In this document: in pieces, positions 3,068 to 28,132 of the stretch
Numbering within the stretch: the stretch's first letter is position 1
Layout: each line of letters starts with the position of its first letter
Assembly: GCA_949295325.1 (NCBI GenBank)
Contig: CASFKG010000001.1
Span: forward strand, 263,665-327,664
Direction of reading: 5' to 3'
Length of the DNA stretch: 64,000 nucleotides
Source of the DNA: an uncultured bacterium
GTDB lineage: Bacteria; Bacillota_I; Bacilli_A; RFN20; CAG-826
Notes under the pieces: generated by a model
The model's input: only the letters and a program-made list of their open reading frames with translations
Databases searched by the model: none
Told to the model about the DNA's origin: nothing
Program-made: the position numbers and the translations under genes

Positions 3068-3901
3068 ATGCAAGGCCATTACCTGCCGATCCGGGAAGGG
3101 TATCTGTATACCGAATCCGCAAACGCCCGCGAACTCATATACGAGGGTTATCAATCCTGCGTAAACGCGATAAGCCTCATTTCCCCTTCGCCGGCGGTAC
3201 GGGTCGAATATTCCGGCAAGGAAGTGGACATGGCCGCCCCGTTCATATTCCTTTCCTTCGCCGGCGAAGGCGGAAGGATCCGCTCGGAAGAAGCATTCGG
3301 GCACAAGACCCTCTACTTCTCCGTCTTCGACTTCTTCACCGAGTACAACCGCATAAGCCTCGAAGGCCTCAAGATCCTCTACCCCGGGAGATACGCGCAC
3401 GAAAGGCTCCTCGACGTCAGGGACGAATTCCACTTATCCTTGTCCCATATCCTTTCTTCCGCGTTCATGCTCCTAAAAAGCAAGAACCCTTCCTTCCGGC
3501 TATCGGAAGAAAGGCTCATATACGAGTTCATCAGGCTCTATCAGAAGGAGATGGCCTACATTGGCGTCAGGGTTCCTACGAGCTACAAGAAGGGGCTTCT
3601 TAGTCCCGCCTTCGAATTGCTGGGGAACAAGGAAGGGCGGGCAAGCCTTGAAGACATGGCCAAGGCCTGTTCCTTGAGCAAGAGCACTTTCATCAGGAAG
3701 TTCAAAGACGAATACGGGGCCTCCCCCTCTTCCTATATGGAAATAGAAAGACTGAAGGCCGCGAAGTACTTCCTGGAGGAAACTAACGATTCCATATCCG
3801 ACATCGCCTATAGGCTTGGCTACTCGAGCCCTTCCTCCTTCGACCGAGCCTATAAGCGGGTATATGGCATCAGTCCGAAGGAAGAAAGGCAAAAAGTCTA
3901 G
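3068..3901 (+). CDS. AraC-family transcriptional regulator
   Basis: C-terminal AraC-type double HTH (SKSTFIRKFKDEYGASPSSYMEIERL...ISDIAYRLGYSSPSSFDRAYKRVYGISP). Divergent from the sugar ABC operon. Confidence 0.85.
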   Translation: MQGHYLPIREGYLYTESANARELIYEGYQSCVNAISLISPSPAVRVEYSGKEVDMAAPFIFLSFAGEGGRIRSEEAFGHKTLYFSVFDFFTEYNRISLEGLKILYPGRYAHERLLDVRDEFHLSLSHILSSAFMLLKSKNPSFRLSEERLIYEFIRLYQKEMAYIGVRVPTSYKKGLLSPAFELLGNKEGRASLEDMAKACSLSKSTFIRKFKDEYGASPSSYMEIERLKAAKYFLEETNDSISDIAYRLGYSSPSSFDRAYKRVYGISPKEERQKV

Positions 3902-3920: not shown

Positions 3921-4046
3921 TGGCAAAAGTTGCCAAGGCATTGGCAAGAGGTGCAACTAACTTCGTATGAAACTTGCCAATGGTTAGGCAAGTGTTGGTT
4001 ATACACCATGCATAAAGAAAACTTGCCATTGGTTTGGCAAGTTTTT
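3921..4046. repeat. Three tandem copies of an imperfect palindrome with 7-bp arms TTGCCAA/TTGGCAA and a short variable spacer (copies at 3929-3948, 3973-3992, 4022-4041).
   Basis: Read directly: gttgccaaggcattggcaag, cttgccaatggttaggcaag, cttgccattggtttggcaag. The cluster sits at the left GC boundary, just downstream of the OLD gene stop. Confidence 0.6.
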
Positions 4047-4066: not shown

Positions 4067-5977
4067 TTAACCCTGCTTTAGCTGGGCAAAGAGTGTTTTG
4101 AAATGATCCAATGTATCCTGGCTTAGCTTCAGTTGCCCTTTTTCTAGCCTCTCCTTGAACAACGTGGCAGCCCAAATCCTTTTGTAGGCCTCGTCTTCGC
4201 TGTTGGCGGAAGGGATGTTGCCCCTGTCCTCTTTGGCGAAGAGATCTTCTATCTCCTTAATGGATTCGTCTTTATCGAAGATGTCCCTTAAGGTAAGAAC
4301 CGAAGACGATAAAGCCGTGTCCTCCGCGCTCTCTTGAAACTTCCTTCCAGCTTCGTCCCCGTCGACAAGGACACGGCTCTTATGGAAGTGGTAATTGCCA
4401 AACTGAACAATAAGTTTCCTGAGCCGTTCCTTGTCGCCCTTCCTCCCTAGCCCGTTGAAAGGAAGGAAGTAGAGTTTGTCCTCGTCTAGTACCTTCTTGA
4501 AGGCCGTGAGATAAGCATAATCGGTAAACCCTTCTACCCAGACGACGATGTGTTCATTGTCGTAAAGGATGTTTGTTTCAACCGTCAAAGCATCCTTGAT
4601 CGGCCTTAATGCATCGGCATCGTTATCATCCAAGACGGTGAATGTATTATTTATATGACTGCCCAGATCACCAGGTTCCACCACTCTAAGTTCTTCGTAG
4701 CTATCAGGATTTATATAGAAGGGAGAATGCGTGGATATCACCACGGTTATGCCATTTCTGCGGGCAAAATCTGTAATGAATTCCTTCAGTTCACTCTGCC
4801 CATGCGGATGGAGATTTGTCGCTGGTTCGTCAAGCAAAAGAATGTCACCGGGTTTGAGAATACTAGCCGCGCAGACCCGGAAATAGAAATCGAAAAACCA
4901 TTTGAATCCGGTGGACTGCTGGGCATAGTTAAGGGGGACTGGCTCCTCTCCGTTCCCTTTCTTGTATATGTTGAAGCAGATGTCGTTGGTCTCGATATCG
5001 AGTTCGAACATATAGGACTGCGAACCGGTGGAGTAGAGTTTGTTGAACCTGTTGGATATGTTCTTTTTGATCTTGGCGTTTATTTTCCTCTCCAAACTTT
5101 TGATGAAGGAAGTGCTTCCGCTTTCCCGGCACAGTTCATAGGCTACCGACACTTCATTTGTGTCGACCCCTATTAAGCCGAAGAGCGATGTGAAGAACGG
5201 CATTCTGGATAGTGACGAGGGATTGCAATGCAAGTCCGAGGAGGAAAACGGCTTATCGTTATAGGAAACTATATCCGGTTTAATTGCAAATCCGTATTTC
5301 TTTTGAAATTCGGTTTTGGCCTCTTCTCCCGAGCAAACTTTCTCATAGTAAGTATAAAGAACACTCTTTGAGAAAATCGCCTTAGCTTTGACCATATCCT
5401 TAATTTCGGCTCGCACGGAATAGTTATAACTATTCCTTCCTATAACGGTGGAATTGCCCCCGTTCTTGTATATGCTGAAGAAGGGCTTGATAGCGTTAAA
5501 CAAGTCTTCATTGGACGTTTTACCATCAAACAAAATTGAACTATATCCTTCCTCGGAAATCTTAAAGCAGCCGAGAATGGTTTCGGCCTCCGTTTTCAAG
5601 GAGTCTAAATCAGCCTCTAGGAAGGTTCTCATGGACATGACATCCCCTCCGCTAAACTGAAGAGTCTGGGAATTGGAATTACGGGATTTGGAAACACTGA
5701 CGTTGTAGTAATTGTCGCCGTCTAAATAGATAAGGTTCACTTCGGCATAGCGGTGATCCTTGGACGGCAGAAAGTTGGTAATGTCATTGTTGCTGATCTC
5801 TACTGTTCCCAAAGCCCTAAGACCATCGATAACGTTACTTTTGCCCGAATTATTTGGGCCGATGATAATCGCTAGTCCACCTTCGTTCCCTTTCTGCATG
5901 GACCTATTGAGTACGAATTCTTCGTCTTCCCCGACGCCAAGATTCCGGTAATCGTGGAACTTCACTATTCTTTTCAT
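4067..5977 (-). CDS. OLD-family (overcoming lysogenization defect) ATPase-TOPRIM nuclease, GajA/class-1 OLD-like
   Basis: N-terminal ABC-type ATPase: Walker A GPNNSGKSN, Walker B LLLDEPATNLHP, H-loop STHSP. C-terminal OLD-type TOPRIM: VVWVEGFTDYAYL (EG..D) and VLVDGDEAG (DxD). 636 aa. Confidence 0.75.
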   Translation of the reverse strand: MKRIVKFHDYRNLGVGEDEEFVLNRSMQKGNEGGLAIIIGPNNSGKSNVIDGLRALGTVEISNNDITNFLPSKDHRYAEVNLIYLDGDNYYNVSVSKSRNSNSQTLQFSGGDVMSMRTFLEADLDSLKTEAETILGCFKISEEGYSSILFDGKTSNEDLFNAIKPFFSIYKNGGNSTVIGRNSYNYSVRAEIKDMVKAKAIFSKSVLYTYYEKVCSGEEAKTEFQKKYGFAIKPDIVSYNDKPFSSSDLHCNPSSLSRMPFFTSLFGLIGVDTNEVSVAYELCRESGSTSFIKSLERKINAKIKKNISNRFNKLYSTGSQSYMFELDIETNDICFNIYKKGNGEEPVPLNYAQQSTGFKWFFDFYFRVCAASILKPGDILLLDEPATNLHPHGQSELKEFITDFARRNGITVVISTHSPFYINPDSYEELRVVEPGDLGSHINNTFTVLDDNDADALRPIKDALTVETNILYDNEHIVVWVEGFTDYAYLTAFKKVLDEDKLYFLPFNGLGRKGDKERLRKLIVQFGNYHFHKSRVLVDGDEAGRKFQESAEDTALSSSVLTLRDIFDKDESIKEIEDLFAKEDRGNIPSANSEDEAYKRIWAATLFKERLEKGQLKLSQDTLDHFKTLFAQLKQG

Positions 5978-5980
5978 TTT

Positions 5981-6385
5981 CTATTTCTCCTTTTTATTAA
6001 TCTCTTTTATCAATGCAAGGGCCAAATGTTGGCCGGAGACAGCGCCTTCGCCAAGAGCCTTGAGAAGGGCGGTTCCCAAACCGTCGTTCTCGGGCTTACG
6101 CAGTTCGAGTACGAGATTTTTCTCGGACTCGGTTAGATTCAACTCGCTTTGGTCTTCCTTCTTCCTATCAAGTAGGAATCCAATGACGTTTTCCTTCCCA
6201 CAGTATGGATGAGAATCGATGTATTTGAACACCGCTAAAGGAAGTTCTCCTATAGATTTAAATTTCCTTTGGTCATATAGGTCTATGAACTTATAGACCG
6301 TAGGCCTAGACAAAGACAAATAAGAAGCGAGTTCGGTTATCTTGATATCAAGGTCTACCAATCTGTCCTTCAGGTTTTCCTTCAT
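5981..6385 (-). CDS. Small HTH DNA-binding protein, likely regulator of the downstream OLD gene
   Basis: HTH segment ITELASYLSLSRPTVYKFI near the N-terminus. Its stop codon is 3 nt from the OLD-family gene start on the same strand. Confidence 0.55.
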   Translation of the reverse strand: MKENLKDRLVDLDIKITELASYLSLSRPTVYKFIDLYDQRKFKSIGELPLAVFKYIDSHPYCGKENVIGFLLDRKKEDQSELNLTESEKNLVLELRKPENDGLGTALLKALGEGAVSGQHLALALIKEINKKEK

Positions 6386-6547
6386 GATAAGACATTATAT
6401 TATTTTACATTTTTTGTAAATACTATTTTACTATATCCGTAAAGCACAGCATTGAAATAGCGAAGGTGTTTGAGCTAATGAAAAAAGAAACATTCCTCGT
6501 AGAAAAAACGAGAACAATAAGAAACGATTGATTAAGAAGAACGAAAA

Positions 6548-6572
6548 CTCGCCAAATCATTGGCAAGTTTTG
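6548..6572. repeat. Fourth copy of the TTGCCAA/TTGGCAA palindrome (ctcgccaaatcattggcaagtttt), same orientation as copy 3
   Basis: Read directly. It abuts a TTGAAA -35-like hexamer (6570-6575) and lies upstream of a perfect TATAAT at 6608-6613, in the region between the divergent HTH and NTase genes. Confidence 0.55.
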
Positions 6573-6782
6573 AAAAGGATCGTCTAACGCTTTAATACCG
6601 ACTCCACTATAATGGCGCGATTTGAGGAACCGACCCTTCAAATGGTAGGAATGGGCACAAATAACTTTAGGAGGGGTTTTGATTATGTATCACTACATCG
6701 ATGACAAAGACTTTCTTCGCGAGCTCAATACATACGGAGGAATCTCACCAATGAACTCGGGCAGGCCATCAACAAAGGGCAT

Positions 6783-7334
6783 TTGAAAGTCAAATGCTAC
6801 CTAGTCGGCAGCGGTGCCCGAAGACTAATCACCCAAAACGGGAAAGAGCCGGTAGATCTGGACTACAACATCGTTATCATCGGAAATAAAAATGACTACG
6901 ATGCAAGAGAGTGCAAGGAAATGATCAGGGAGGGATTGAACAGGGTTCTTAAAAAGTATGGTCTACCAGATTCTCATGACTCGACTTCCTGTCTAACTAC
7001 CGACGGAATTGGTCCAACGGGAGGAAACAATACTCCGTTCAGTTTGGATATAGCTATTTTGAAGAAGACTGGAAAACAAGGACACTTGTCGCGGCTTATC
7101 CATTTCAAAACAGGTAATGTCGGTAATGATACCTATACCTGGAATGAGGTACCGAATACCAATGGGCTAGAAGAAAAAGTAAAAGCCCTAAGGGAATATG
7201 GCTATTGGTCAGAGGTACGCCAAGCCTACCTCAATCTAAAAAACATGTATCTAAATAAAAGGGACCATAATCATCCTTCATACATCTGCTATATGGAAGC
7301 GGTCAATCAAGTATTCCACAAAAATTTGAAATAG
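6783..7334 (+). CDS. Nucleotidyltransferase-fold protein (Pol-beta/MNT/KNTase-like). The N-terminus is uncertain.
   Basis: LVGSGARRLITQNGKEPVDLDYNIV matches hG[GS]x(9-13)Dh[DE]h (GSxAR...DxD). The frame is open from 6705, but the only RBS+ATG (AGGAGG...ATG at 6685) is in another frame; see findings. Confidence 0.5.
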   Translation: MKVKCYLVGSGARRLITQNGKEPVDLDYNIVIIGNKNDYDARECKEMIREGLNRVLKKYGLPDSHDSTSCLTTDGIGPTGGNNTPFSLDIAILKKTGKQGHLSRLIHFKTGNVGNDTYTWNEVPNTNGLEEKVKALREYGYWSEVRQAYLNLKNMYLNKRDHNHPSYICYMEAVNQVFHKNLK

Positions 7335-7444
7335 ACAGTCAACCGCGATCCAAGAAATTATCGTTTGTAGAATGGCTTCATTAGGGAGCCTGATTCTTTA
7401 GGGTTCCTTAAACCTAACACGAAACAAATTTTTGCGGTGAAACG

Positions 7445-10171
7445 TCATTGCTTGCGTTTAACGGTTTCGATTCCGTATAGGTTTGAAAGTATATACGCAT
7501 CTGCCTTTTCGTTTGGCTTTTTCAGATTCCCAAGGACGCGCTTTTGTGTCTCGGGACTCCAATATATCTTTAGAGTTTCCTTGGCTCTTGTTATTGCGGT
7601 GTAGAAGACATTCAAATCGACCCTATCTTCAACCTCTCTGGAAATTACGACTTTGACCGATTTGTATTCCAGTCCTTGGGCCCGATGGACGGAAACGGCG
7701 TAGGCAATCTGAAATGGAATGACTGACGAATGGTTTGGAAAATCTTTCTCCCCAATATTTGGATCTTTTTTAACATCGAAAGATATAACGGAGTGTTCGT
7801 CATCCACTCGCTTTTCAAGCCGATAATACCCCAAGTCGCCTTCGTCGGAGACCGAGGCCTCTACTAAAACCTTGAAGTACATTCTTTCCGAATCTTCGTT
7901 GAGATCGATTATCTTCCCTTTGGTATTGTTGTGGATTAAGGAAGTGGAAGCCCACGCATCGTTAAACAAAATCGGATCGCCTATCTTGAAAGTATCGAAG
8001 CCATAGGTTACTGACTTTTCGTGGTTATTGGCCTGAAGCAGCTTATTTATATTGTTTATGCCATATAGCCCACCGTAATTGAGGCACAATATGATTTCGT
8101 CGTCGTCTTCCCGTTTAAACAAAGATTCGTCCAGTTTTGCAACGTAGCCGCCGGTTAAGAACAGTTCGTCTATCTTACCTTCGTTATTTCTGACCGCACC
8201 CCAAAGAGTCTTAAGATCATTGTTGGTCGAACGATAGGTATTCTTAAGTTCGATAACGTAGGGCCCCTTGAGGAAATATCTGGCAATGCCGAACCAGTTG
8301 CCGAATGTGATTGATTCGATTTGATACTCGTCGCCGGCTAAAACCAAGCAGTTGAATTTCCCCGCTTTCAAAATCGACATCATCTCGGAATTGTTGACCG
8401 TACTGCATTCGTCGATAAACAAAACATCGCAAGCAAAGCGATTTGGATCTTTGAGATATTTCGTAATTGTCGAATAACGGTGGTTTCTTTCCGTTTTTCT
8501 TTTAAGATTGTCAACTGCGGAATTAGTATTGGCCAAAAACACCATTTTTGCGTTGCCCCAAAAATTAGCGATGTGCTTCATCAATGTGGATTTGCCAGTG
8601 CCGGCAGAGCCATAGATAAAAGCTACCCTCGATTGGTCGAACATATGGATCATCGCATCTTTTTTCACTTCGTCGTCTATAGGATACGATCCTAGCCACT
8701 TCTTCACCTTTTCGGCATAACCGTCGATTCCAGAAGAAACATATGTCTTTAAGGTTTTGATTATTTGGGCTGTATCATCAGCATATTGGTCAATGTAGTA
8801 GAGGTTCTTTCCGAATATCCTTAAGCGGCGATTAGCGTGACCGGAATATAAGTTCTCGTTGTAACGTTTAATGCAATTATCAATATCTTGGAAGGAATCA
8901 AGATCGGATTTTTTTGTAAATATCTCCCTGTTGACCTCGGCATTGTTCTTTACCTGTCTTGCTAGGAATTCGTGTTCGCGGCCATCTGGTGGAATCGAAT
9001 ACAAAACATCGAAAAAGTCCGGATTATGATTGCAAAGCGAAGTACAAAAAGGCATTTTATCGAACGGGATGCAGCCTGGTTTTAAATACAGTCTCGATAA
9101 TGCTTTACATTGTTGTAATGCCGTTTGGTCTTTTATGACTTTGTTGTTCATCTTAAAAAGGAGATAACGGAGGACATTGCCACCTTTGGCGTCTTTTTTG
9201 CTTAAAATGATCTCTCTGCAGCAGTCAAGCAGAAGGCAGATCGGAGAACTCGATTTACCATTTGTCATCTCTTGTTTGAATGCTTCGTATCCCTCATCAT
9301 CCAGGGTAACAATGCGCGTAAGAGACATGCGCTTTTCCTTAATATAATTCATTAATGGCAGATAGTCAGAACCATAACCGATTCTGGTATTAAGCCGGCC
9401 AAACAAACAGGCAAAGTTATTTAGTTCACACGGACGTATGGAAACATAGTATTTATCTATCACGAGCATAGGCATATTCCTGCCTAGAATCCTGACAGTG
9501 CCGACGAAAGCCTCGACCTTGATGGAATAGTTGTCCATGACTTTTTCTTTGGAAAAGGCGATTACCCTTCCGAATTTGCTAGCATTATCAATAGCATTTC
9601 CCAAAGTTATTTGGTAATAGACTTTCTTGTTGGCAAAGAACGGTTTAACCCTATAGACGTAGTAACGGCCGTCCAGTCCCGCAGGTTTACGGGATCTGCT
9701 GGGGTTTTCAATCTCTTCGGCGACTTTTTCGTAGTACTCGGATTGTTCCTTGTCGGTATCTAACGGGAAATCATGAATGTTATGCAAAAGTTCAATGTTC
9801 CATCCATCCTTGGCAAACTTTTTGGCTGTGACAAGAAAAGGGAGATAGTGAAGCATGAGCCTCTCCGAATCTTCGCCCGTCAGTGTGAAATGGGAAACGG
9901 ATATCTGGAGCAATTTGTGAAATTTGCTGAGCCACTCGCATCTGGCTTCGGCTTCCTTCAAATACGGTTTGATTTCACTGTCCCATTTGTGAGGAATAGG
10001 TTTACCCTCCATAACTAGCATATTAGCCATGAAACCTTCGACGAAATTACGGAGATTCGAAAGGATGTTCTGACTTAAGAGGGAGCGTTTGTCGGGTTTG
10101 TCTTTAAACTCCTCGATATTATCACAAATGACTTGATCGGCGTAAAACATCGAATCGATAATATTGGACAT
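7445..10171 (-). CDS. SF1B (RecD/Pif1/AAA_30-type) helicase with an N-terminal domain of about 490 aa of unknown function
   Basis: Walker A AFIYGSAGTGKST, Walker B VLFIDECS, motif III LAGDEYQ, motif VI VHRAQGLEYKSV, C-terminal YTAITRAKETL. I recognise no motifs in the first ~490 aa. Confidence 0.75.
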   Translation of the reverse strand: MSNIIDSMFYADQVICDNIEEFKDKPDKRSLLSQNILSNLRNFVEGFMANMLVMEGKPIPHKWDSEIKPYLKEAEARCEWLSKFHKLLQISVSHFTLTGEDSERLMLHYLPFLVTAKKFAKDGWNIELLHNIHDFPLDTDKEQSEYYEKVAEEIENPSRSRKPAGLDGRYYVYRVKPFFANKKVYYQITLGNAIDNASKFGRVIAFSKEKVMDNYSIKVEAFVGTVRILGRNMPMLVIDKYYVSIRPCELNNFACLFGRLNTRIGYGSDYLPLMNYIKEKRMSLTRIVTLDDEGYEAFKQEMTNGKSSSPICLLLDCCREIILSKKDAKGGNVLRYLLFKMNNKVIKDQTALQQCKALSRLYLKPGCIPFDKMPFCTSLCNHNPDFFDVLYSIPPDGREHEFLARQVKNNAEVNREIFTKKSDLDSFQDIDNCIKRYNENLYSGHANRRLRIFGKNLYYIDQYADDTAQIIKTLKTYVSSGIDGYAEKVKKWLGSYPIDDEVKKDAMIHMFDQSRVAFIYGSAGTGKSTLMKHIANFWGNAKMVFLANTNSAVDNLKRKTERNHRYSTITKYLKDPNRFACDVLFIDECSTVNNSEMMSILKAGKFNCLVLAGDEYQIESITFGNWFGIARYFLKGPYVIELKNTYRSTNNDLKTLWGAVRNNEGKIDELFLTGGYVAKLDESLFKREDDDEIILCLNYGGLYGINNINKLLQANNHEKSVTYGFDTFKIGDPILFNDAWASTSLIHNNTKGKIIDLNEDSERMYFKVLVEASVSDEGDLGYYRLEKRVDDEHSVISFDVKKDPNIGEKDFPNHSSVIPFQIAYAVSVHRAQGLEYKSVKVVISREVEDRVDLNVFYTAITRAKETLKIYWSPETQKRVLGNLKKPNEKADAYILSNLYGIETVKRKQ

Positions 10172-10774: not shown

Positions 10775-11247
10775 TCAGTCCTTCTGCCTTTCTTTTAAAA
10801 CATTAAGAACCGATCCGCCCCAAGTTTCCGAACCGTTGTCGGATATCTTTTTTGCCGGATTGCCGGCAATGCAGATGTTCGGCGTTTTAAAGGATTTATT
10901 CACCAACGAGTCGGCGCCGATGGCGATTCCGTCCGCTATGGACACCCCCCAACCAGCGTGGAACCGGTGCCGATCGTTACGTTGTCGCCGATATCGGGAC
11001 TTGAGCCGTCATGGCCGCCGGCAACAAGAGAAACGTTGAACTGGACCGAAAAGTTCCTGCCTATGCGTGTCGCATTGATCATGATGTTATGCGGGTGGAA
11101 CATCAGAAAACCGGGCTCTATTACATTAAGGGGCAGGAAAACGCTGTACTTACGGGAAATCTTTGCCCTTAGGTATTTGATTAGAAACGCAGATAGTTTC
11201 CTTCCTCTTTTCCTAAGATATTCTTCTTTCCTTAATAGCGAGACCAT
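10775..11247 (-). pseudogene. Hexapeptide-repeat sugar/serine O-acetyltransferase (WcaB/CysE-like) interrupted by a frameshift at a C6 (G6 on the coding strand) tract
   Basis: One frame reads ...HPHNIMINATRIGRNFSVQFNVSLVAGGHDGSSPDIGDNVTIGTGSTLVGG and stops. The hexapeptide continues in another frame as VSIADGIAIGADSLVNKSFKTPNICIAGNPAKKISDNGSE. The junction is the cccccc run at 10945-10950. Confidence 0.6.
10945..10950. repeat. C6/G6 homopolymer at the frameshift point of the acetyltransferase gene
   Basis: gacacccccc aacc, read directly; adding one base or removing two restores the hexapeptide reading frame. A second G6 run sits at 11278-11283, about 31 nt upstream of the gene start. Confidence 0.6.
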
Positions 11248-11436: not shown

Positions 11437-12711
11437 TCAATCGTTTTGGGCGAAAATAGATAATGCATTTACCAACATTTTCTTGCACTTGCGGAAACAT
11501 CTTTTTAAAAATTGTTTAATTAAGGTATAGGAGTAATAGGGTAAAGAAAGCGTTTTTCCTGCTCTTCTTTCAAAATTCTGAGAAACGAACCATTTTAACT
11601 CCTTTGGGAGATTCTCGGTCCCGTAATGACGAAGAGCCGTATTTTTAATATCAGCAAAAATAGAAACCTTATCCGGGGCTAAAAGAGCATGACGAATGCT
11701 CTTTTTTAAGGTATTAAAATCTATATCTGGAAGCCCTATGAGCGATGTGTCACAACCGTTTGCTTTGCCAGCCAAAAACGAACGACAGCACTTTTCGCAA
11801 TGGCCACAGTTTTCCCCGCTTTTGTCCTCCCAACAAACGTGAAGGTTTAGCCTAATGGCGTTCTCAGAACAGAAATCACTTATAGTCTTGACCTTTTCAC
11901 ATCTGGCTGCTTCGAAACCCGAATGAATAACCTCGAGGCCACCAAGCGCGAAAGCCTCGTCGGCATCAGGATTTGAAGAACAAGGAAAACGGGATTCTGC
12001 TGTAAAACTTGCTGCGATAAAAAGGTATTTCAAACCTAAGGCATATGCTGGGCAAGCTGCCAAAGAAAGTAGGGCCTGGCCATGTTCAAAATCATGCCAC
12101 CATTCAAAGCCGTGCTTGCCAACTATTCCAGTAAGATAACCCTCGTTGATGACTTTCCGGAAATTCGATGTAATTGAATGAAGTTTCTTTTTGAAGGCAC
12201 GTGCTGTTTCTCGAGCGCCGTCGTAAACTCGCTCCCACCCAGTTTCATCTTCAACCGGAATATCGCTTCCGTGAACGATAAATAAATCACTGATAGATTT
12301 TCTTTCCTTTATTAGGGAATAGGTCGCGTCAATACCATTTGAAAACAACAATCCGCCGCCGCTTAAAGATTTATTGTTATCAACAATTTGCTTTGCTATG
12401 ACACTTCCGCCTAAAGGCTTAAGACCAGGATCTTTTTCGTACGCTTTTCTAATGGCTTCAACCCTTTCGAGGTACGTTTTGTCCAATTCGTCTACATGGA
12501 TACATGCGTCGAGGACAAAAGCAATCGGTAAAAGCAACCCCAAGGCAGGAATAACACAAATTGAATTAGGAACCGATGATATGTCATCGCTATAATCGGT
12601 CTTCAAAAACGTGGGATTATTTGGGAAAAGTGCGCTTGGACAATCAATTCCCTCGATTTTTAGTGAAATGCTATGACGCGTTCTAGAATCAACGTGAATA
12701 TAGAAGTCCAT
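11437..12711 (-). CDS. PP-loop ATP-pyrophosphatase-like protein (QueC/N-acetyl-sugar amidotransferase WbpG-like) with an atypical P-loop
   Basis: Degenerate PP-loop LFSNGIDATYS in place of SGGxDS. QueC-like zinc motif CGHCEKCC (CxxCxxC). It sits at the edge of a polysaccharide cluster. Confidence 0.4.
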   Translation of the reverse strand: MDFYIHVDSRTRHSISLKIEGIDCPSALFPNNPTFLKTDYSDDISSVPNSICVIPALGLLLPIAFVLDACIHVDELDKTYLERVEAIRKAYEKDPGLKPLGGSVIAKQIVDNNKSLSGGGLLFSNGIDATYSLIKERKSISDLFIVHGSDIPVEDETGWERVYDGARETARAFKKKLHSITSNFRKVINEGYLTGIVGKHGFEWWHDFEHGQALLSLAACPAYALGLKYLFIAASFTAESRFPCSSNPDADEAFALGGLEVIHSGFEAARCEKVKTISDFCSENAIRLNLHVCWEDKSGENCGHCEKCCRSFLAGKANGCDTSLIGLPDIDFNTLKKSIRHALLAPDKVSIFADIKNTALRHYGTENLPKELKWFVSQNFERRAGKTLSLPYYSYTLIKQFLKRCFRKCKKMLVNALSIFAQND

Positions 12712-12733
12712 AACAATTCAATTATGCGAGTGA

Positions 12734-14719
12734 CTAATCGAATGTTTCAAGTACGCTATAATCAAAACCCAAGTGTTCAAAGACGAGCGTATCTAAAGTA
12801 CCTTTGAAGGATATTAAATATTTGTCAAAGTCACTGATATTGTCATAATTCTTAAAAAAGATAAAGCCGGAAGGTTTTATCCATTCGAATATACCTTCTA
12901 CTTTAAAATTATAATTACCAAACGCAATCGTTGGAGTGGAGGTAAGATATCCGAAGACCATCCCATGCAGCCTGTCAGTGACAACAAACTTAGAGTTCGT
13001 ATAGTGCCGTAAAAACCTTTTTAGAATTTTTTCCCGATTAATCGGCGTTATGCGAATAGGCAAATTAGTGTCTATTCTTTCAACGGCGGAGCCGGATTTC
13101 GAAATAGAGTCCAACATTTCATTTGAAAATTGATCCGGCATGGCTTTTTCAACATCATTTCTCAAAACAGCTAAACATTTATCTTCCCTTGTAGCTTTTG
13201 ATTTGAAAGGCTCTAGACGAAGAGCCATGTCAGGGCAGAGCCGGATATCGCACGAAGGAAAATATGTCCTAGCAGTGACGAGCGAAAAACGCTCGCGAAC
13301 AAACAATACTAATCGCTTGCTTTCGGAATAAAAAAGCGATGACAAATGGAGCTCCGTTTTGCCATCCTCATCACTTGTGAAAAAAACTGTTTGTGGGAAA
13401 ACGGCAGTCTTCGTATTGGGAAAATCATGTATAACCATTCTTCTCAGAAGCTCCTCAGAAAGATACTGATTGCCCAGATTGCCGCCGCCATGCAAATAAA
13501 TAATTCTAGGATCCTTGGTTTTTAGAATCGATCGGAAGGAAAGATAGAAGGATCCGGGAATTTCTATAACATGCTTCTTGCCATATTTTTTGTGTAAAAA
13601 GGAAAGCGAAGAAATTGCAATGGCTTGGTCCCCCAAATTGCCGTGGAGTGGCGTACCAATAAACAAAACAGAACCGTTCCCAAAAAAGCAGATCTTGACT
13701 TTTATTAAAATTTTCAGCCACCACAAAAGAGGGTGTTTAACTGATCGGGCAAATGATTTTAGAAGGTTTTCAACCTTAATAAAGAATTTATAGGCTCGTA
13801 AGGAAAAAAGGTAGGAAATCCCAAGGCAAAAAGCATGCCATTTAATATGGAAAAGATTTTTAGAGAGGGCTGAACGAAATTCATTGTTCCATGTCTTAAA
13901 TGCAACCTGGATGTCTTTGTTTGCTGATATTTGTTCCCACGCTTTAACACCTAGTCTTTCGCACATGCAGGCGGCATCCGAAGCCAATTTCCAATTTTTC
14001 TTGGATGAATAAAAAGCAAATCTATCGAGAAAAGCCCAGTTTGCATCAAGCTTTTTTATATCAAATGGTCGTTTAGTAATTGATCCGGAACGGTGCCTGT
14101 AGTAATAGAGGCGGTCATGTATAACAGAGATGCTCTCACATTTCCAAACAATATGGTGAAAGCAAAATTCATCTTCGTGAATTCTACCATTTGGGTATCT
14201 AATCCCATTGAACAACTCTCGCTTATAAAGTTTGTTCCAAGCAACGACGGAACAAACACCAGGCAAAGAGGTATTTAGAAATTCATCTCTCGCTAGAACA
14301 ACATCTCTTTTAATGCGGTCATGAAACGCAAAATCACTTATGTTTTCGTAATAATCAAAATAATCGCATATGCACAAATCTGAAGAACCGATTTTCTTTA
14401 CAAGCGTTTCGATCATGAATGGAGACAGGAAATCGTCCCCATCAATGAAAACAATATAATCGCCAGTCGACAAATCAATCCCGGTATTTCTGGCAGCAGA
14501 CAGGCCTTCATTCAAGACCTTGTCGATTGTCACAAATCTATGATCTGTTCCAGAAAACAAATGAGCAATTTCTGACGTTCTATCATTTGAACAATCATTG
14601 ATAACTAGTACTTCAATGTTTTGATAAGACTGCTTTTGAATTGAAAGAAGACACGCGTTCAAAAACTGATCCACATTGTAGGCCGCAACAATTATTGAAA
14701 CTTTTGAACACATTTTCAT
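12734..14719 (-). CDS. Bifunctional protein: N-terminal GT2 glycosyltransferase fused to a C-terminal polysaccharide pyruvyl transferase
   Basis: N-terminus VSIIVAAYNVDQFLNACLLSIQKQSYQNIEVLVINDCSNDRTSE (GT2). C-terminal half carries FIGTPLHGNLGDQAIAISSL (pyruvyl-transferase-like GNxGD). Confidence 0.65.
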   Translation of the reverse strand: MKMCSKVSIIVAAYNVDQFLNACLLSIQKQSYQNIEVLVINDCSNDRTSEIAHLFSGTDHRFVTIDKVLNEGLSAARNTGIDLSTGDYIVFIDGDDFLSPFMIETLVKKIGSSDLCICDYFDYYENISDFAFHDRIKRDVVLARDEFLNTSLPGVCSVVAWNKLYKRELFNGIRYPNGRIHEDEFCFHHIVWKCESISVIHDRLYYYRHRSGSITKRPFDIKKLDANWAFLDRFAFYSSKKNWKLASDAACMCERLGVKAWEQISANKDIQVAFKTWNNEFRSALSKNLFHIKWHAFCLGISYLFSLRAYKFFIKVENLLKSFARSVKHPLLWWLKILIKVKICFFGNGSVLFIGTPLHGNLGDQAIAISSLSFLHKKYGKKHVIEIPGSFYLSFRSILKTKDPRIIYLHGGGNLGNQYLSEELLRRMVIHDFPNTKTAVFPQTVFFTSDEDGKTELHLSSLFYSESKRLVLFVRERFSLVTARTYFPSCDIRLCPDMALRLEPFKSKATREDKCLAVLRNDVEKAMPDQFSNEMLDSISKSGSAVERIDTNLPIRITPINREKILKRFLRHYTNSKFVVTDRLHGMVFGYLTSTPTIAFGNYNFKVEGIFEWIKPSGFIFFKNYDNISDFDKYLISFKGTLDTLVFEHLGFDYSVLETFD

Positions 14720-15100
14720 GTATAAATTAGCGTAACTTTCTCTTCCCTAAAAATTGTCAACTAAAGTGCATAAGGGGAATTTGGAGGCTTTGGAGGTAGA
14801 TGCTTTTACAAATTAAATTTCATTTATTGTTTTCAGGAAAGCGCAGTTGCCAGACTCTATTCATGCCCTTTTATTTTAATGTTTTTCGCTTGTGCAGGCT
14901 ATAACCACATAAAAAGACCAGGGGCATAGACAATAATCGATGAAATTAATTTGTCTTTTTCTAGTTCCTTTCGTGACAGAGGAATTTTTCAGGATATAAG
15001 GGTACGCACTCTAGCGCCATGATCGATTTCTTAGCCTAGGAGTGTGGCATTCAAATCTACCCTACTAGTTACTATATTAAGGACACTAAAAACAGAGGAA

Positions 15101-16648
15101 TTAATTGGCAATTTTTCCCCGTTTCTTTTTAACGATAATAGTCAGATGTTGCCAAATGTATTTCAAGCCTTGGAAATTCAGTAGCCCAAAGAATATAAAA
15201 CCTATAGAAAGGGCGAGGATAAGGTCAAGCAGCAAGTCCGCGATCAGTATGGTTGTATTAATCAAAGACGCGAGAAAATATAATCCTGTTCCGCCGATCA
15301 TAATAATTGCGAGGCGAATAAACATTTCAATAAGATAATTCCTCGATGAAGTCAGAAAAACGTCACGATAAAGAATCATGGGCTCTCGCCAATAGGCGAA
15401 AACGATTCTTGAAATGCTAGTAGAAATTAAAATGCCAAAAATTCCAAGGAAGTATCCTAAAAGCACAGACAAAGCGAGATTAATAATAGTCGATACAACG
15501 GGCAACCATTTGACTTGGTCGAAAATTCCTGCAGTTTCCCGAAAAACCCATGTGTTTTGTTTTACGTTGCTTGTCACGAAAGCCAAGACAATTGCAAACA
15601 AAGTTGGAAAATCTAATAGATACTCTATCCCATAGCTAAACAAAATAAATTTGTTAAAGCATGCAAAAAAACAAAAAGCACATACGCCTGCAATAAAAAT
15701 ATTGATTTGTTCGAACGTATTGAACAAAGACAATTTTGCTTCAGGGGTTGGTGCTTCAAGCATGTAGTTCCCTACACTTGCTTTCACCGAAGCATAAATA
15801 ACATTGATAAACGAAACGACGCTGTTTACCATCGCTAGATAATTTGAATACAGGCCAACACTTATTGTGCCAACCAATATAGAAATCAATATATTGTCCG
15901 TGTTGTTCTGCAGTATGCCACAGACACGATAAATGAATGTAGACCTGACATTTCTGCCTATTTCTTTTTTGTCGGCATTAGAAAGAGGTTCCTTAGGCTT
16001 GTTTCGCAAAAATGGATAGAAATGGTTGGTTGCAATTGACTTGCAAAAATTCCCAATCAGATTGGTTCCTATGCCGACTGCAATGTAGATAAAATAATTC
16101 CTGAAAAGAATTAAAAACAAAATTCTCAAACCAAACTTTGCTATCTCAAATGCTAACCCAACAATATTTAATAAATAGGACTTTTGGTCAGCTGAAAGCA
16201 GTGTTGTTTTATAGACAAATAGATAAGAAGAGGAAGCTTCTATAACGAATAAAACGTAATACCATGTGAGATAATCAATGTTGGATGGAAGGTTTACGAT
16301 ATAAGGTAATAAGGGGATAAAAGCCAAACCGATGATAAGAATTGCGGCGGCAATGATTAAATAAACTTTCCTGAAAAATCGAACAAGTTGTGTGGTTTTA
16401 ATTTCGTCGTGCTCTTTGAGTGGCTTGTAGAAAGAAAACATCATTGCGGTAGCAATGCCCAAATCTGCTAATGAGAAAAGGGAAATTACATTTGAAAATA
16501 GACCGTTGATGCCAAGGTAAGAAGCATCAAGATACTGGACAAAAATAACCCGGGCTACGTAGTTTAGGACCAGAGAAACTATTGACAATGCAATAGAAAC
16601 AACAACGTTTTTTGTTGTTTTGACCGTCCTACTTCCGCTGCCAGACAT
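15101..16648 (-). CDS. wzx: Wzx-type polysaccharide flippase (MOP/PST family)
   Basis: 515 aa, polytopic, typical oligosaccharide-flippase-like hydrophobic profile, inside a glycosyltransferase cluster. Confidence 0.7.
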   Translation of the reverse strand: MSGSGSRTVKTTKNVVVSIALSIVSLVLNYVARVIFVQYLDASYLGINGLFSNVISLFSLADLGIATAMMFSFYKPLKEHDEIKTTQLVRFFRKVYLIIAAAILIIGLAFIPLLPYIVNLPSNIDYLTWYYVLFVIEASSSYLFVYKTTLLSADQKSYLLNIVGLAFEIAKFGLRILFLILFRNYFIYIAVGIGTNLIGNFCKSIATNHFYPFLRNKPKEPLSNADKKEIGRNVRSTFIYRVCGILQNNTDNILISILVGTISVGLYSNYLAMVNSVVSFINVIYASVKASVGNYMLEAPTPEAKLSLFNTFEQINIFIAGVCAFCFFACFNKFILFSYGIEYLLDFPTLFAIVLAFVTSNVKQNTWVFRETAGIFDQVKWLPVVSTIINLALSVLLGYFLGIFGILISTSISRIVFAYWREPMILYRDVFLTSSRNYLIEMFIRLAIIMIGGTGLYFLASLINTTILIADLLLDLILALSIGFIFFGLLNFQGLKYIWQHLTIIVKKKRGKIAN

Positions 16649-17106
16649 GACCCATGAATGCTATTCATTCGTAGTACTATTTTCAAGACATATCAAAAGA
16701 GCAAATTAATCGAAACACACAATGAAGCCAATATAAGTCCAAAGATGTTGCAAATTGTTGTGGATTCTAAAAGTTTTTAGGCAAGACGTATCTGAGAAAA
16801 GACATAATTTATGTTAGAAGTCTCCAACTTTTGTCTCCGCGCATAAGCGGTCATCTTTTTTCAAAGAATTGGATAATTTTAGAGAAATAATGAAATTAGC
16901 CTATCCAGTTATAGAAATAATAAAATGATTAGCTGATATTTATGCGATATACATTGAAAATCGATTAAGTCTTTAAAAAGAGATCGGACGAAAGCCACAA
17001 ATTTTGCTTATCTATTTATCTACTTACAAAAATGCAATCTGTTATTCGGAAACTATTGGCGGGAAGGACTTGAAGAGGCTCCTAAAAACATCTTTGATCT
17101 TAATCA

Positions 17107-18057
17107 TCAATTAAAATTAGGATTCAACAAATTAAACATACGTATATATGTTTTGAGGAGCCAATATTTCTCCCTTAAAATCGAGTCAAAAGCTAAGCGC
17201 CTTGTGAAGGCTACATCAGCAAATATGGTTTTTTTATAGATTTTAAAAAGATTAATTGCCTTCCTAACAGAGCTATTAGCATATATTGATGAAAAAAGTT
17301 GCCTGTTCAAAGAGCTTGAACAATACGCCTGAATAAAAAGAATCAAAAAGCCACGAAGAGCATCTGCATATCCAATATAACGTTCTTCGTAATTGCCAAA
17401 ATGTTCCTCAATAAACAAAGTAGCTAGAGACAAATCTTCAAAACGGGCGATTTTAAAAACATGTTGCCCGGAAAATTCGTTGGGCCTTATCCAATAATAA
17501 TTTTCGGAACAAAAAACAACGGAGCGAGCCGCAGAAGCAAACGCTAGGCTGAGGATTTTATCATCGGATTGAAATATATCTATATCTGGGAAAACTGGTT
17601 TTAAATTAACACTGAAGAGCTTACATGAAAGAGAGTTAAGCCTATTAGAAGAAAGGAGAACTTGAATTAACGCAGCCGAGGAATCATAGTATCCAGAAAG
17701 TAATTCCGTTTTGTCTGAAACAAGTATATCAGGACAACCATACTTATTTATTTCATTCACAAGGCTTGAAAAAGCGTCAGAACTTACAATTTTGTCATCA
17801 CTGTCGACAAACAAAACATAATCACCCTTTGCCTTATAAAACATGGCAATCCTTGATTTAAATGATGAGGGCTTCTCAAGATCAATAACTTTTATTAGAG
17901 GGTAACGCGTCAAAATCCAGGATATGTCCTCCCCACCTTGACGGCACAGCAATATTTCAAAAGGTGGTGTTTTCTGAGAGACAATGCTTTTTATACACTC
18001 ATCCAAAAATTCTGGTTTTTGTTTATAAGTAGGAATACACACACTAATTTTCATCAC
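17107..18057 (-). CDS. GT2 glycosyltransferase
   Basis: MMKISVCIPTYKQKPEFLDECIKSIVSQ... and FVDSDDKI (DXD). Confidence 0.75.
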   Translation of the reverse strand: MMKISVCIPTYKQKPEFLDECIKSIVSQKTPPFEILLCRQGGEDISWILTRYPLIKVIDLEKPSSFKSRIAMFYKAKGDYVLFVDSDDKIVSSDAFSSLVNEINKYGCPDILVSDKTELLSGYYDSSAALIQVLLSSNRLNSLSCKLFSVNLKPVFPDIDIFQSDDKILSLAFASAARSVVFCSENYYWIRPNEFSGQHVFKIARFEDLSLATLFIEEHFGNYEERYIGYADALRGFLILFIQAYCSSSLNRQLFSSIYANSSVRKAINLFKIYKKTIFADVAFTRRLAFDSILREKYWLLKTYIRMFNLLNPNFN

Positions 18058-18243
18058 AAAATTGGTAACAACTAAAAAGCAAGAAGTATCCTAATGCTTT
18101 GGTCTTTGGGCCTCAACAAGTTTCCATTATCAAAAGTCTGGTTTTGAAGTGAACTAACAATTTTTAAGTAGGTATTTCTATATCGAACCGACCCGGAATT
18201 TATAGTTAAGCTTTTTTAGAAATGTATTTCCAGCAGAAATAAT

Positions 18244-19140
18244 CTAGGCCAAAAATTTTAGACAAAGGCACTGTTTGAGAGACCGCTTCCCAAAGTAATT
18301 CATTAACAAAAAGGTTTTCCACCTAGAGAAATTATACTTTGATTTTATTCCCATCAACTCCTTGGCCGTTCGCTTAAAAGAACCATCAAAGGCTCCTCGT
18401 AATATAGTAGGGAAATACATTGACTTAACAATATATTGTTCCAACAAGGTTTTTCGCTTTCCAGTACAATCCATAGGAATTATTATTTCTTTGTTAAAAT
18501 CAATATGTTTATGGATTTTTCGAGCATTAAAATGCGCTGCTTTTGAAATATTGTGGGATATTAACAATGGGCTTTGAACATAAAAATAAACCGCCTTTGG
18601 TACAAAAACTGCCCTACATTCGCCAGAAAAAACGAGAGAAAGCAGAGCGAGTTCACCTTTTTAAAACTATAGTGACATTTTTCTAGATAACTTTTCTTAA
18701 AAACTAGTCGCCACCCACCGTACTGAAAAGACAAGAGCTTTTTGTAATCAGATAATTCACTGATTAATTTTGGAGAAGAAACGGAAATGGAACGAGCAAT
18801 TTTGCCACCGCCAAGACCTAAGTCTTTCACTTCCTGAGTAACTAGCAGAACATTCGTAACTAGAACATCAGGGTTTTCAAATGCCGAAACTGATTTGGAC
18901 AAGCTTTCAAAGTAATCAGAAGAGACATAATCGTCATCATCCATGCAGACAACATACTGGCCACTTGTTTTCTCAAACCCAAATTGCCTTGCTGAATGCA
19001 AATCCGGTTCCACTTTGTTTTTAAAAACTCGAAGACGTGTGTCAACAAAAGAACTGGCAACGCGGAATGTATCGTCGTTAGAGTAATTGTCGATAACTAA
19101 GATTTCGAAATCACTTGATTTCTGTGCAAGAAGTGAATTT
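18244..19140 (-). pseudogene. GT2 glycosyltransferase remnant, 5'-truncated and internally frameshifted
   Basis: In-frame ILVIDNYSNDDTFRVASS directly follows a TAA with no start codon. The gene is then split near 18561-18567 into a piece with VVCMDDDD and a C-terminal piece. Confidence 0.55.
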
Positions 19141-19327
19141 TAAATCCCAGAAATCTTCTTTTCTCCGTTTTTGCAGCTTATTACAACCGAAAACTTGATA
19201 ATGCGACAAGAATAGAGCAAGAAAAAGAACAGACCACGTTTTTATTGGTTTCTTTGAACAGAAAAAACTCGTCTAATTATGATCACTTTGATTTATTAAT
19301 ATCACAAAAATCAATTAAAATCTTTTC

Positions 19328-20536
19328 ATGAATATAACGGTTGCCGGCCTAGGATACGTAGGCCTATCTCTAGCAGTATTACTTGCCCAAAGAAATCACG
19401 TAAAAGCTATAGATGTCGTTCAGTCCAAGGTGGACATGGTGAACTCTAAGAAGTCCCCTATCCAGGATAAGGAGATTGAGGACTACCTAGCCCATAAAGA
19501 ATTGGACCTAGTAGCTACTACAAACTCAGAGGAAGCATATTGTGGTGCCGACATCGTTATCGTAGCAACTCCGACTAATTATGACTCTGATAAAAACTTC
19601 TTCGATACAAGCCATGTCGGGGACGTCCTGAATTTGGGAAACAAGCTATGCCCAAAGGCAACTTTCGTTATCAAATCAACAATCCCCGTCGGCTATACAG
19701 AACGCATTAGAAACGTTTACAAAAGCCTCAATATCGTATTTTCCCCCGAGTTTTTGCGGGAATCCAAGGCACTATACGACAATCTCTACCCTTCCAGAAT
19801 CATCGTTGGATCTTCAAAGACAAATAAGAATCTAATCGAGCGTGGAAAGATATTCGCTTCCCTCCTAAAAGAAGCTGCCCTGAAAGAAGACGTACCAGTT
19901 CTCTTCATGGAACCCACCGAAGCGGAAGCAGTCAAACTCTTTGCCAATACTTATCTCGCCCTTAGAGTAGCTTACTTCAACGAACTAGATACCTATGCCG
20001 AAACAAAGGGTTTAGACACCACGTCCATAATCGATGGTGTTTGCCTCGACCCCCGAATCGGGACTCACTACAACAATCCGTCCTTTGGCTATGGTGGTTA
20101 TTGCCTTCCCAAGGATACGAAACAGCTCAAAGCTAACTTTCAGGATGTGCCCGAAAACCTCATTACCGCGATTGTCGATTCAAATAGAACCCGTAAGGAC
20201 TTCATCGCGAGCCAGATATTAGAAAAAGTCGGTTTCGATGGAACAAACAGCAAATCAATCACCATCGGCATATATCGCCTAACGATGAAATCGAATTCGG
20301 ATAACTTCAGGCATTCCTCGATCCAGGGGGTCATGAAGAGAATCAAGGCAAAAGGTATCAGGGTTATAGTCTATGAACCTACCCTGGCCGATCCCGATTT
20401 CTTCGGAAGCGATGTCGTAAGGGATTTCGACGTCTTTGCCAGACAATCAAATATCATCGTTGCCAATCGTTTCTCCGACGAATTAAAACCCTATTCGGAA
20501 AAGGTTTATACGAGAGATATATTCAGAAAGGACTAA
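19328..20536 (+). CDS. ugd: UDP-glucose 6-dehydrogenase
   Basis: [21 protein letters not shown] Rossmann N-terminus; 402 aa, UDP-Glc/GDP-Man dehydrogenase family architecture. Confidence 0.9.
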
Positions 20537-21636: not shown

Positions 21637-21640
21637 AAAA

Positions 21641-23750: not shown

Positions 23751-23759
23751 ATTTGCTCC

Positions 23760-27958: not shown

Positions 27959-28132
27959 ATAGATTTGTTCAAGCAGCGAATCAAGAATAGTCCCTATTCT
28001 TTTGCTTACACTTTGAAAACAAACGATTATTGAAAATAACGATATGAACCTGTTTAGTTCCGCTATCGTGTTTAATGAATTCTTGTCTCCGTTTAAATGA
28101 TTATCTAATGAGCAAAACAGGCGGCAGATTTT

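What the first reader, a model, noticed from the sequence alone, without database searches (positions are those of the whole stretch)
4067..10171. Candidate multi-gene defence locus: HTH regulator plus OLD-family nuclease, a small NTase, and a SF1B helicase with a ~490-aa unknown N-terminal domain
OLD-family ATPase/TOPRIM nucleases are established anti-phage effectors (P2 Old, Gabija GajA, PARIS, retron effectors). Gabija pairs GajA with a UvrD-like SF1A helicase directly downstream. Here the helicase is RecD/Pif1-like (SF1B), carries a large uncharacterised N-terminal domain, and is separated from the OLD gene by a divergently transcribed nucleotidyltransferase-fold gene and an HTH gene. I do not recognise this gene combination and order as any described system. 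It could be a Gabija-like variant, two or three independent single-gene systems, or a new HTH/OLD/NTase/helicase system.
Basis: partly seen in the sequence, partly recalled or inferred. Interest (0 to 1): 0.8.

Follow-up and report, generated by a model that had tools for sequence, protein, structure and literature searches.

The report
Three unrelated defence-type modules side by side
The four genes are real, but they are three independent modules rather than one system: a regulator-plus-OLD-nuclease pair conserved in many bacteria, a helicase already listed as an untested anti-phage candidate, and a broken phage-type nucleotidyltransferase gene.

Summary
All four ORFs are at the stated coordinates, at the edge of a low-GC island. 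They do not co-occur elsewhere.

1. **HTH + OLD (4067-6385, minus strand).** This is a conserved two-gene operon. 30 of 39 related OLD loci carry the HTH gene directly upstream. 25 of 32 of those have a TTACA-N5-TGTAA palindrome at the promoter, often as two copies 22-24 bp apart. The HTH is therefore most likely an autoregulator. This OLD clade matches no PADLOC model over its full length, and a conserved HTH partner fits none of the described OLD context classes.

2. **Helicase (7445-10171).** It matches PADLOC candidate PDC-S53 over its full length (1086 bits). The core is Pif1/RecD2-like. The roughly 495-residue N-terminal region matches no Pfam family and no solved-structure sequence, and is found only fused to this helicase. 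Its neighbours vary from genome to genome.

3. **NTase.** This is a small cGAS/DncV-like fold family found in prophages and mobile elements. Here it is frameshifted; the true span is 6685-7334.

No OLD locus holds the helicase or the NTase, and no helicase locus holds OLD or HTH. The Gabija-like and four-gene readings are rejected. Defence activity itself remains untested.

The parts
4067..5977 (-). OLD-family nuclease gene (636 aa): N-terminal ABC ATPase and C-terminal TOPRIM
   Evidence: Pfam AAA_21 and AAA_15. Partial PADLOC AriA, Old and GajA hits. Invariant ATPase and TOPRIM motifs across 34 homologues. OLD-like_TOPRIM hit in 10 of 14 family C-termini. Best solved relative is the TsOLD ATPase segment, 6P74.
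5981..6385 (-). HTH protein gene (134 aa), 3 nt upstream of the OLD start; probable autoregulator of the operon
   Evidence: A homologue lies directly upstream on the same strand in 30 of 39 OLD loci, typically with a gap of -4 to +9 nt. HTH_17 matches in 14 of 22 members.
6405..6419 (.). Palindrome TTACA-N5-TGTAA (putative operator O1), 34 nt upstream of the HTH start, overlapping a TTTACA -35-like hexamer
   Evidence: The motif (at most 1 mismatch) is present upstream of HTH in 25 of 32 distinct loci. Composition-matched simulations give a mean of 0.57, and it occurs upstream of 0 of 132 other ORFs. It is absent from 6 OLD loci that lack HTH.
6428..6442 (.). Degenerate second copy (TTACT-N5-CGTAA), 23 bp from O1
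   Evidence: Tandem 23-nt repeat 6397-6442. Twelve other loci carry two copies 22-24 bp apart.
6685..7334 (+). Small cGAS/DncV-like nucleotidyltransferase gene, frameshifted between 6732 and 6741 (probable pseudogene)
   Evidence: Homologues are 215-231 aa. Their N-terminus is encoded in another frame in the window. GS...DLD...D triad is conserved. The family model matches CD-NTases. The family lies in prophages and mobile elements.
7445..10171 (-). 908-aa helicase: uncharacterised N-terminal region (about residues 1-495) and SF1B Pif1/RecD2-like core; member of PADLOC candidate PDC-S53
   Evidence: PDC-S53 HMM scores 1086 bits, residues 1-901 against model positions 1-896 of 900. More than 1900 full-length homologue clusters. 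The N-terminal region is found only in proteins of about 900 aa or fragments of them. PDB hits fall only in the core.

Best explanation
The segment is a small patch of independent defence-type modules at the border of a horizontally acquired low-GC island.

Module 1 is a bicistronic HTH-OLD operon. The HTH protein most likely binds one or two TTTACA-N5-TGTAAA palindromes that overlap its own promoter. This would hold expression of the ABC-ATPase/TOPRIM nuclease at a low, buffered level. By analogy with single-gene OLD nucleases (P2 Old, Vibrio cholerae OLD), the nuclease would nick or degrade DNA during infection.

Module 2 is a stand-alone SF1B helicase of the PADLOC candidate family PDC-S53. 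Its conserved, cysteine-rich N-terminal region of about 495 residues presumably provides sensing or targeting. The Pif1/RecD-like motor presumably acts 5'-3' on invading DNA.

Module 3 is a decayed copy of a phage-borne mini CD-NTase-like gene, probably a remnant of a mobile element.

Shown here: gene content, domain assignments, HTH-OLD linkage, operator conservation, lack of co-occurrence between modules, and the frameshift. Inferred: repression by the HTH, nuclease and helicase activities, and anti-phage function.
For: HTH-OLD linkage: 30 of 39 loci, with tight gene spacing.

Operator: present in 25 of 32 loci against about 0.6 expected and 0 of 132 control upstream regions. Twelve loci carry a pair of sites 22-24 bp apart. 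The sites overlap -35-like hexamers. The motif is absent where the HTH is absent.

No conserved gene downstream of OLD.

OLD motifs are invariant.

Helicase: full-length PDC-S53 match. Its neighbours vary: type I R-M plus Shedu, MNT/HEPN, Dcm/KAP/SIR2, or ICE-like elements. PDC systems were defined by being embedded in BREX, DISARM or R-M loci (10.1101/2024.01.29.577857).

NTase family: found in 17 viral contigs and next to integrases. Frameshifted in the window.

No cross-module co-occurrence, apart from one prophage insertion at L099.
Against: No experiment supports defence for any of the three modules.

Neighbours of HTH-OLD elsewhere are mixed. Some are defence genes (Cas9, a DUF2726 helicase, an MrfA-like helicase) and some are housekeeping genes (Lon, ClpB).

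Nine of 39 OLD relatives lack the HTH, including the closest one at 42% identity.

The second operator copy in the window is degenerate.

The sample of helicase contexts is small: four lineages and five viral contigs.

Functional cooperation between adjacent but evolutionarily unlinked modules cannot be excluded by genomics alone.
Confidence: 0.65

Rival explanations
1. The four genes form one integrated HTH/OLD/NTase/helicase defence system.
For: They are adjacent within 6.1 kb of a low-GC island. Three of the four genes are on the same strand.
Against: None of the other 47 OLD loci holds the helicase or the NTase. None of the helicase loci holds OLD or HTH. None of the 20 NTase loci holds OLD or HTH. 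The only NTase locus that also holds a helicase homologue is L099, where the NTase sits in a prophage inserted into the helicase gene. The NTase is frameshifted in the window and is transcribed against the others. Each module has its own independent distribution.
Confidence: 0.04
2. It is a Gabija-like variant in which the OLD nuclease works with the nearby helicase.
For: GajA models hit the OLD protein partially (E about 1e-13). A helicase lies 1.5 kb away.
Against: Gabija is defined by a UvrD-like SF1A helicase directly downstream of OLD (PMC10568477). Here the gene downstream of OLD is a convergent AraC gene. The helicase is Pif1/RecD-like and lies upstream. GajB hits are insignificant (E about 1e-3). 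The two genes never co-occur elsewhere.
Confidence: 0.03
3. HTH-OLD is a toxin-antitoxin-like addiction or stabilisation module. The HTH protein would act as antitoxin and autorepressor, and OLD as a toxic nuclease. Its role would be element maintenance rather than dedicated phage defence.
For: The architecture is typical of type II TA modules: a small upstream HTH gene, gene spacing of -4 to +9 nt, and palindromic operators at the promoter. One copy lies in a viral contig (L114). Genomic contexts are mixed.
Against: OLD-family proteins with a tested function act in anti-phage defence (PMC10568477, PMC12392090). Nine of 39 relatives lack the HTH and apparently tolerate this. TA and abortive-infection roles are not mutually exclusive.
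Confidence: 0.15
4. The helicase is a replication, recombination or transfer helicase of mobile elements, not a defence protein.
For: PHROG 325 'Dda-like helicase' matches nearly the full length (3e-63). Some homologues sit in ICE- or plasmid-like contexts with RepA_N, ParB and integrases. Five viral contigs carry it.
Against: Other homologues lie between type I R-M and Shedu genes, or beside MNT/HEPN or Dcm/KAP/SIR2 genes, with no replication genes nearby. The PADLOC authors selected the family because it is embedded in R-M, BREX or DISARM loci. In L099 a prophage has inserted into such a gene.
Confidence: 0.15

Closest known systems
Class 1 OLD nucleases (P2 Old, Thermus scotoductus OLD 6P74, Vibrio cholerae OLD)
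   Same: [quoted passage not shown] No helicase or retron partner. Best solved sequence relative is 6P74.
   Different: Class 1 is defined as a lone gene (PMC10568477). This clade has a conserved upstream HTH gene and a conserved operator. Sequence similarity to the P2 Old model is only partial (E 2.5e-13).
Gabija (GajA/GajB, Class 2 OLD)
   Same: Contains an OLD-type ATPase-TOPRIM nuclease. A helicase gene is nearby in this window.
   Different: No UvrD-like gene lies downstream. The helicase is SF1B and is not linked to OLD in other genomes.
PARIS (AriA/AriB, Class 4 OLD)
   Same: The AriA models are the best PADLOC hits to the ATPase part (2e-18).
   Different: ATPase and TOPRIM are fused here. 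The hits cover only part of the protein, and no AriB-like gene is present.
PADLOC phage defence candidate PDC-S53
   Same: The helicase matches the model end to end at 1086 bits. It is a single gene with variable neighbours.
   Different: None detected. The window protein is a divergent member, at most 50% identical to other clusters. The family has no published test that I could find.
Pif1/RecD2/Dda SF1B helicases
   Same: The motor core at residues 497-880 matches 8BNS (Pif1), 3E1S (RecD2), RecD and the NCBIfam RecD2 model.
   Different: All scores are far below the family cut-offs. The protein carries an extra conserved N-terminal region of about 495 residues that these helicases lack.
CD-NTases of CBASS (CdnD, CdnB, DncV) and cGAS
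   Same: Predicted fold and the GS...DxD...D catalytic triad.
   Different: Only about 215 aa, against about 300 or more. TM-scores are 0.4-0.55. No Pfam or PADLOC family match above noise. No effector gene is adjacent. The family is phage-borne, and the gene is frameshifted here.
C-protein-controlled R-M systems and autoregulated type II TA operons (my own knowledge)
   Same: A small HTH gene comes first in the operon. Paired palindromic operators overlap the promoter.
   Different: The downstream gene is an OLD nuclease. Binding has not been shown.

Membership tests
OLD family nucleases | N-terminal ABC-type ATPase with Walker A, signature motif, Walker B and H-loop | tested here: met
   Pfam AAA_21 and AAA_15. 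Invariant G40..K46S47, Q354-S355-G357, D383-E384 and H417.
OLD family nucleases | C-terminal TOPRIM domain with a conserved Glu and a DxD metal site | tested here: met
   Invariant E482-G483, D539-x-D541 and E577. OLD-like_TOPRIM hit in 10 of 14 family C-termini, best E 7e-4. PADLOC Old and GajA models align through residue 571. The profile evidence is weak; the motif evidence is strong.
Class 1 OLD | Single gene with no conserved partner gene | tested here: not met
   An HTH gene lies directly upstream in 30 of 39 related loci.
Class 2 OLD / Gabija | [quoted passage not shown] | tested here: not met
   The downstream gene is a convergent AraC gene. No conserved downstream gene exists in relatives. 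The nearby helicase is SF1B and unlinked.
Class 2 OLD / Gabija | Helical insert in the TOPRIM domain | not tested
   No structure model of the OLD protein was made.
Class 3 OLD (retron effector) | Adjacent reverse transcriptase and msr/msd ncRNA | tested here: not met
   No RT domain among the neighbours. No Rfam match anywhere in the window.
Class 4 OLD / PARIS | Separate AriA ATPase and AriB TOPRIM genes, with fusions as exceptions | tested here: not met
   The protein is fused. AriA models match only the ATPase part at 65 bits.
PADLOC PDC-S53 | Full-length match to the PDC-S53 HMM | tested here: met
   E = 0, 1086 bits, residues 1-901 against model positions 1-896 of 900.
PADLOC PDC-S53 | Single-gene system with no obligatory partner | tested here: met
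   Four lineages have four different neighbourhoods.
PADLOC PDC-S53 | Anti-phage activity | not testable with these tools
   It is a candidate chosen by guilt-by-embedding only.
SF1B helicases (Pif1/RecD/Dda) | SF1 motor core most similar to Pif1 or RecD | tested here: met
   8BNS Pif1 at E 1e-7 across residues 503-866, plus RecD2 and RecD. NCBIfam RecD2 at 6e-29, below its cut-off.
SF1B helicases (Pif1/RecD/Dda) | 5'-3' translocation polarity | not testable with these tools
   This is a biochemical property.
CBASS | CD-NTase fold with the GS/DxD/D triad | tested here: met
   Top 50 Foldseek PDB hits are CD-NTases, cGAS or MiD51, with E down to 8e-5. The triad is conserved.
CBASS | Adjacent effector gene in an operon | tested here: not met
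   No neighbour is conserved across 20 loci. None is present in the window.
CBASS | Match to cyclase sequence models | tested here: not met
   PADLOC Cyclase E 0.0087 at 12.9 bits. No Pfam hit.

The most novel reading that the evidence does not exclude
The HTH-OLD operon is a distinct, undescribed context class of OLD nuclease systems. In this reading the HTH protein is a required component: an autorepressor and possibly an infection-responsive switch or antitoxin. Its release from the paired TTTACA-N5-TGTAAA operators, or from OLD itself, would unleash the nuclease. This would give stand-alone-type OLD nucleases a built-in trigger mechanism.
Probability: 0.3. Interest if true: 0.55.

Novelty: new variant of a known kind. 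Interest (0 to 1): 0.4.

Why it matters
How single-polypeptide OLD nucleases are kept harmless and then activated is an open question raised in the OLD literature (PMC10568477). A clade with a dedicated, tightly coupled HTH partner and a conserved operator is a directly testable handle on that question.

The helicase belongs to a large untested candidate family. At least 668 clusters at 50% identity carry its N-terminal region. That region of about 495 residues has no known fold, so it is a reasonable target for structure and function work.

For the scan itself, the main result is negative. The locus is a juxtaposition of modules, not a new four-gene system.

Tried and rejected
- **Genome-contig scan.** I ran it with the single OLD protein instead of an alignment.
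- **Structure of helicase residues 1-490.** The AlphaFold model was poor (pLDDT 54, pTM 0.30) because the 28-sequence alignment was too uniform. I therefore did no fold search on it.
- **Sequence searches on the N-terminal region.** The PDB profile search found only the helicase core. Pfam at E up to 1 found nothing.
- **Literature on PDC-S53.** The name is absent from the paper library and from the held, truncated supplements of the PADLOC candidate paper.
- **BFVD fold search of the NTase model.** Uninformative.
- **TTGCCA-N6-TGGCAA hairpins as the HTH operator.** I considered these hairpins, which flank the cassette. I rejected them because they are absent from all other HTH-OLD loci, whereas TTACA-N5-TGTAA is conserved.
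- **Hairpin hit at 29646.** This hit, near the far end of the low-GC island, lacks the flanking A/T tracts and looks like chance.
- **A conserved third gene downstream of OLD.** None found.
- **Krishnan et al. 2020 (PMC7544218).** This paper catalogued OLD-ABC neighbourhoods, but I could not read it. An earlier mention of an HTH-linked OLD clade therefore cannot be excluded.
- **Host taxon.** Not determined. The window comes from a metagenome contig.

Full report
**Setting**

The window has a low-GC island from about 3.9 to 31 kb, at 35-45% GC against 56-58% in the flanks. Its left edge abuts an AraC gene (3068-3901) and a sugar ABC-transporter operon. From about 11 kb onward the island encodes polysaccharide-synthesis genes. 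The finding occupies the first 6 kb of the island. The same sequence is found only in one metagenome contig and its Logan counterpart. I did not determine the host.

**Observation**

All four ORFs are at the stated coordinates.

- *OLD protein.* It has Pfam AAA_21 and AAA_15. An alignment of 34 homologues shows invariant Walker A, signature, Walker B and H-loop residues. The TOPRIM residues E482-G483, D486, D539-x-D541, G544 and E577 are also invariant. Profile support for TOPRIM is weak but consistent. OLD-like_TOPRIM is hit in 10 of 14 family C-termini. The PADLOC Old and GajA models align through residue 571.
- *134-aa protein.* It has no hit of its own, but 14 of 22 family members hit HTH_17 at the N-terminus.
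- *Helicase.* The core lies at residues 497-880 and is closest to a bacterial Pif1 (8BNS), RecD2 and RecD. Residues 1-490 have no Pfam or PDB sequence relative.
- *NTase ORF.* It is shorter than its homologues, which are 215-231 aa. Their first 16 residues are encoded at 6685-6732 in one frame and residues 20-214 at 6741-7322 in another. The gene is therefore 6685-7334 with one frameshift. A high-confidence model of the family (pLDDT 89) matches CdnD, CdnB, cGAS and DncV. The GS...DLD...D triad is conserved.

**Are the genes linked?**

An alignment-based metagenome scan gave 80 loci with OLD relatives.

- *HTH and OLD are linked.* tblastn with the window proteins found an HTH homologue directly upstream, on the same strand, in 30 of the 39 loci that hold a full-length OLD and enough upstream sequence. 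The gap is usually -4 to +9 nt. A profile search found no HTH in the other nine.
- *The other genes are not linked to them.* No helicase or NTase homologue occurs in any of the 47 OLD loci, 22 of which have at least 2.5 kb upstream. No gene downstream of OLD is conserved.
- *Helicase neighbourhoods vary.* Homologues from four lineages sit in four different settings. One is type I R-M plus a Shedu-type nuclease. One is an MNT/HEPN pair. One is an ICE-like element with RepA_N, ParB and an integrase. One is Dcm methylase, KAP NTPase and SIR2. None contains OLD or HTH.
- *NTase neighbourhoods vary.* The family occurs in 17 viral contigs and beside tyrosine or serine recombinases. No neighbour is conserved across 20 loci.
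- *One apparent exception.* L099 holds both an NTase and a helicase homologue. There the NTase lies in a prophage, with two integrases, that has inserted into the helicase gene. The helicase match starts at residue 195.

**HTH-OLD**

Upstream of the HTH gene there is a palindrome, TTACA-N5-TGTAA. With at most one mismatch it occurs in 25 of 32 distinct loci. Composition-matched simulated sequences give a mean of 0.57 loci and a maximum of 5. It occurs upstream of none of 132 other long ORFs in the same loci. Twelve loci have two copies 22-24 bp apart, about two helical turns. The left half-site often coincides with a TTGACA-like -35 hexamer. The motif is absent from six OLD loci that lack the HTH.

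In the window the good copy is at 6405-6419, 34 nt from the start codon. A degenerate copy lies at 6428-6442. I infer that the HTH protein is an autoregulator of the operon. Binding has not been shown.

The clade has at least 517 clusters, the nearest at 42% identity. It occurs in Clostridia, Bacilli, Mycoplasma and Fibrobacteraceae, and in gut and other metagenomes. No PADLOC v2 model matches any member better than about E 1e-22, and those matches are partial.

The published OLD classes are defined by gene context: lone gene, UvrD partner, retron, or split PARIS (PMC10568477 and PMC12392090). A conserved HTH partner fits none of them. I could not read Krishnan et al. 2020, which catalogued OLD-ABC neighbourhoods.

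Neighbours of HTH-OLD elsewhere are a mix of defence genes (Cas9, a DUF2726 helicase, an MrfA-like helicase) and housekeeping genes (Lon, ClpB).

**Helicase**

The protein matches PADLOC PDC-S53 from end to end. PDC systems are 145 candidates chosen because they are embedded in BREX, DISARM or R-M loci (10.1101/2024.01.29.577857). I found no test of PDC-S53.

More than 1900 clusters at 90% identity are full length. A search with residues 1-490 found 668 representatives at 50% identity. Nearly all of the best 150 are about 900 aa or fragments of such proteins. The N-terminal region therefore occurs only fused to this motor.

Invariant C248, C318, C367, C376 and H382 suggest a metal site. This is an inference only. 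The structure prediction of this region failed (pLDDT 54).

**Verdict**

The four-gene and Gabija-like interpretations are not supported. The locus is a juxtaposition of three things:

- an autoregulated HTH-OLD pair, which is a new variant of a known kind;
- a catalogued but untested helicase candidate;
- a decayed phage NTase gene.

Anti-phage activity of any part remains an inference from family membership and genomic context.

Noticed in passing
window 3925-4045 and 6544-6571: A hairpin, AAAACTTGCCA-N6-TGGCAAGTTTT, occurs three times between the AraC stop and the OLD stop, and once between the HTH and NTase genes. The copies therefore bracket the HTH-OLD cassette. The core pattern gives 5 matches in the window against 0.15 expected. 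It looks like a bidirectional intrinsic terminator or a repeat left by cassette insertion. It is absent from other HTH-OLD loci.
   Followed up: partly
L099 1-11035: A prophage (tail-fibre chaperone domain, M23 peptidase, PBECR5 nuclease, NTase homologue, two tyrosine integrases) abuts a helicase homologue whose match begins at residue 195. A phage appears to have integrated into a PDC-S53-type gene.
   Followed up: partly
L087-L094, 6887-10718: A Shedu-type nuclease gene (SduA_C, 366 aa) ends 14 nt before the helicase homologue, just after a type I R-M operon. This could be a lineage-specific pairing.
   Followed up: no
L019 12028-13584; L023 5615-7129: A protein of about 510 aa with a C-terminal DnaJ domain lies directly downstream of OLD, on the same strand, in two loci.
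   Followed up: no
L047, L048, L050, L052: A sub-clade of longer OLD relatives (804 aa) lacks the HTH. Instead it has two small ORFs upstream, of 156 aa and 101-110 aa.
   Followed up: no
window 10936-11247 (-): A 103-aa ORF is a fragment of a hexapeptide acetyltransferase of the CysE/EpsC type. It is probably a decayed gene at the edge of the polysaccharide locus.
   Followed up: no
window 11437-31000: A low-GC polysaccharide biosynthesis cluster lies in the same island as the defence genes. It includes a GT2 plus pyruvyl-transferase fusion at 12734-14719 and a UDP-glucose dehydrogenase at 19328-20536.
   Followed up: no
window 6386-6404: A TATAAT hexamer lies only 8 nt upstream of the HTH start codon, with no Shine-Dalgarno sequence between them. 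The HTH mRNA may be nearly leaderless.
   Followed up: no
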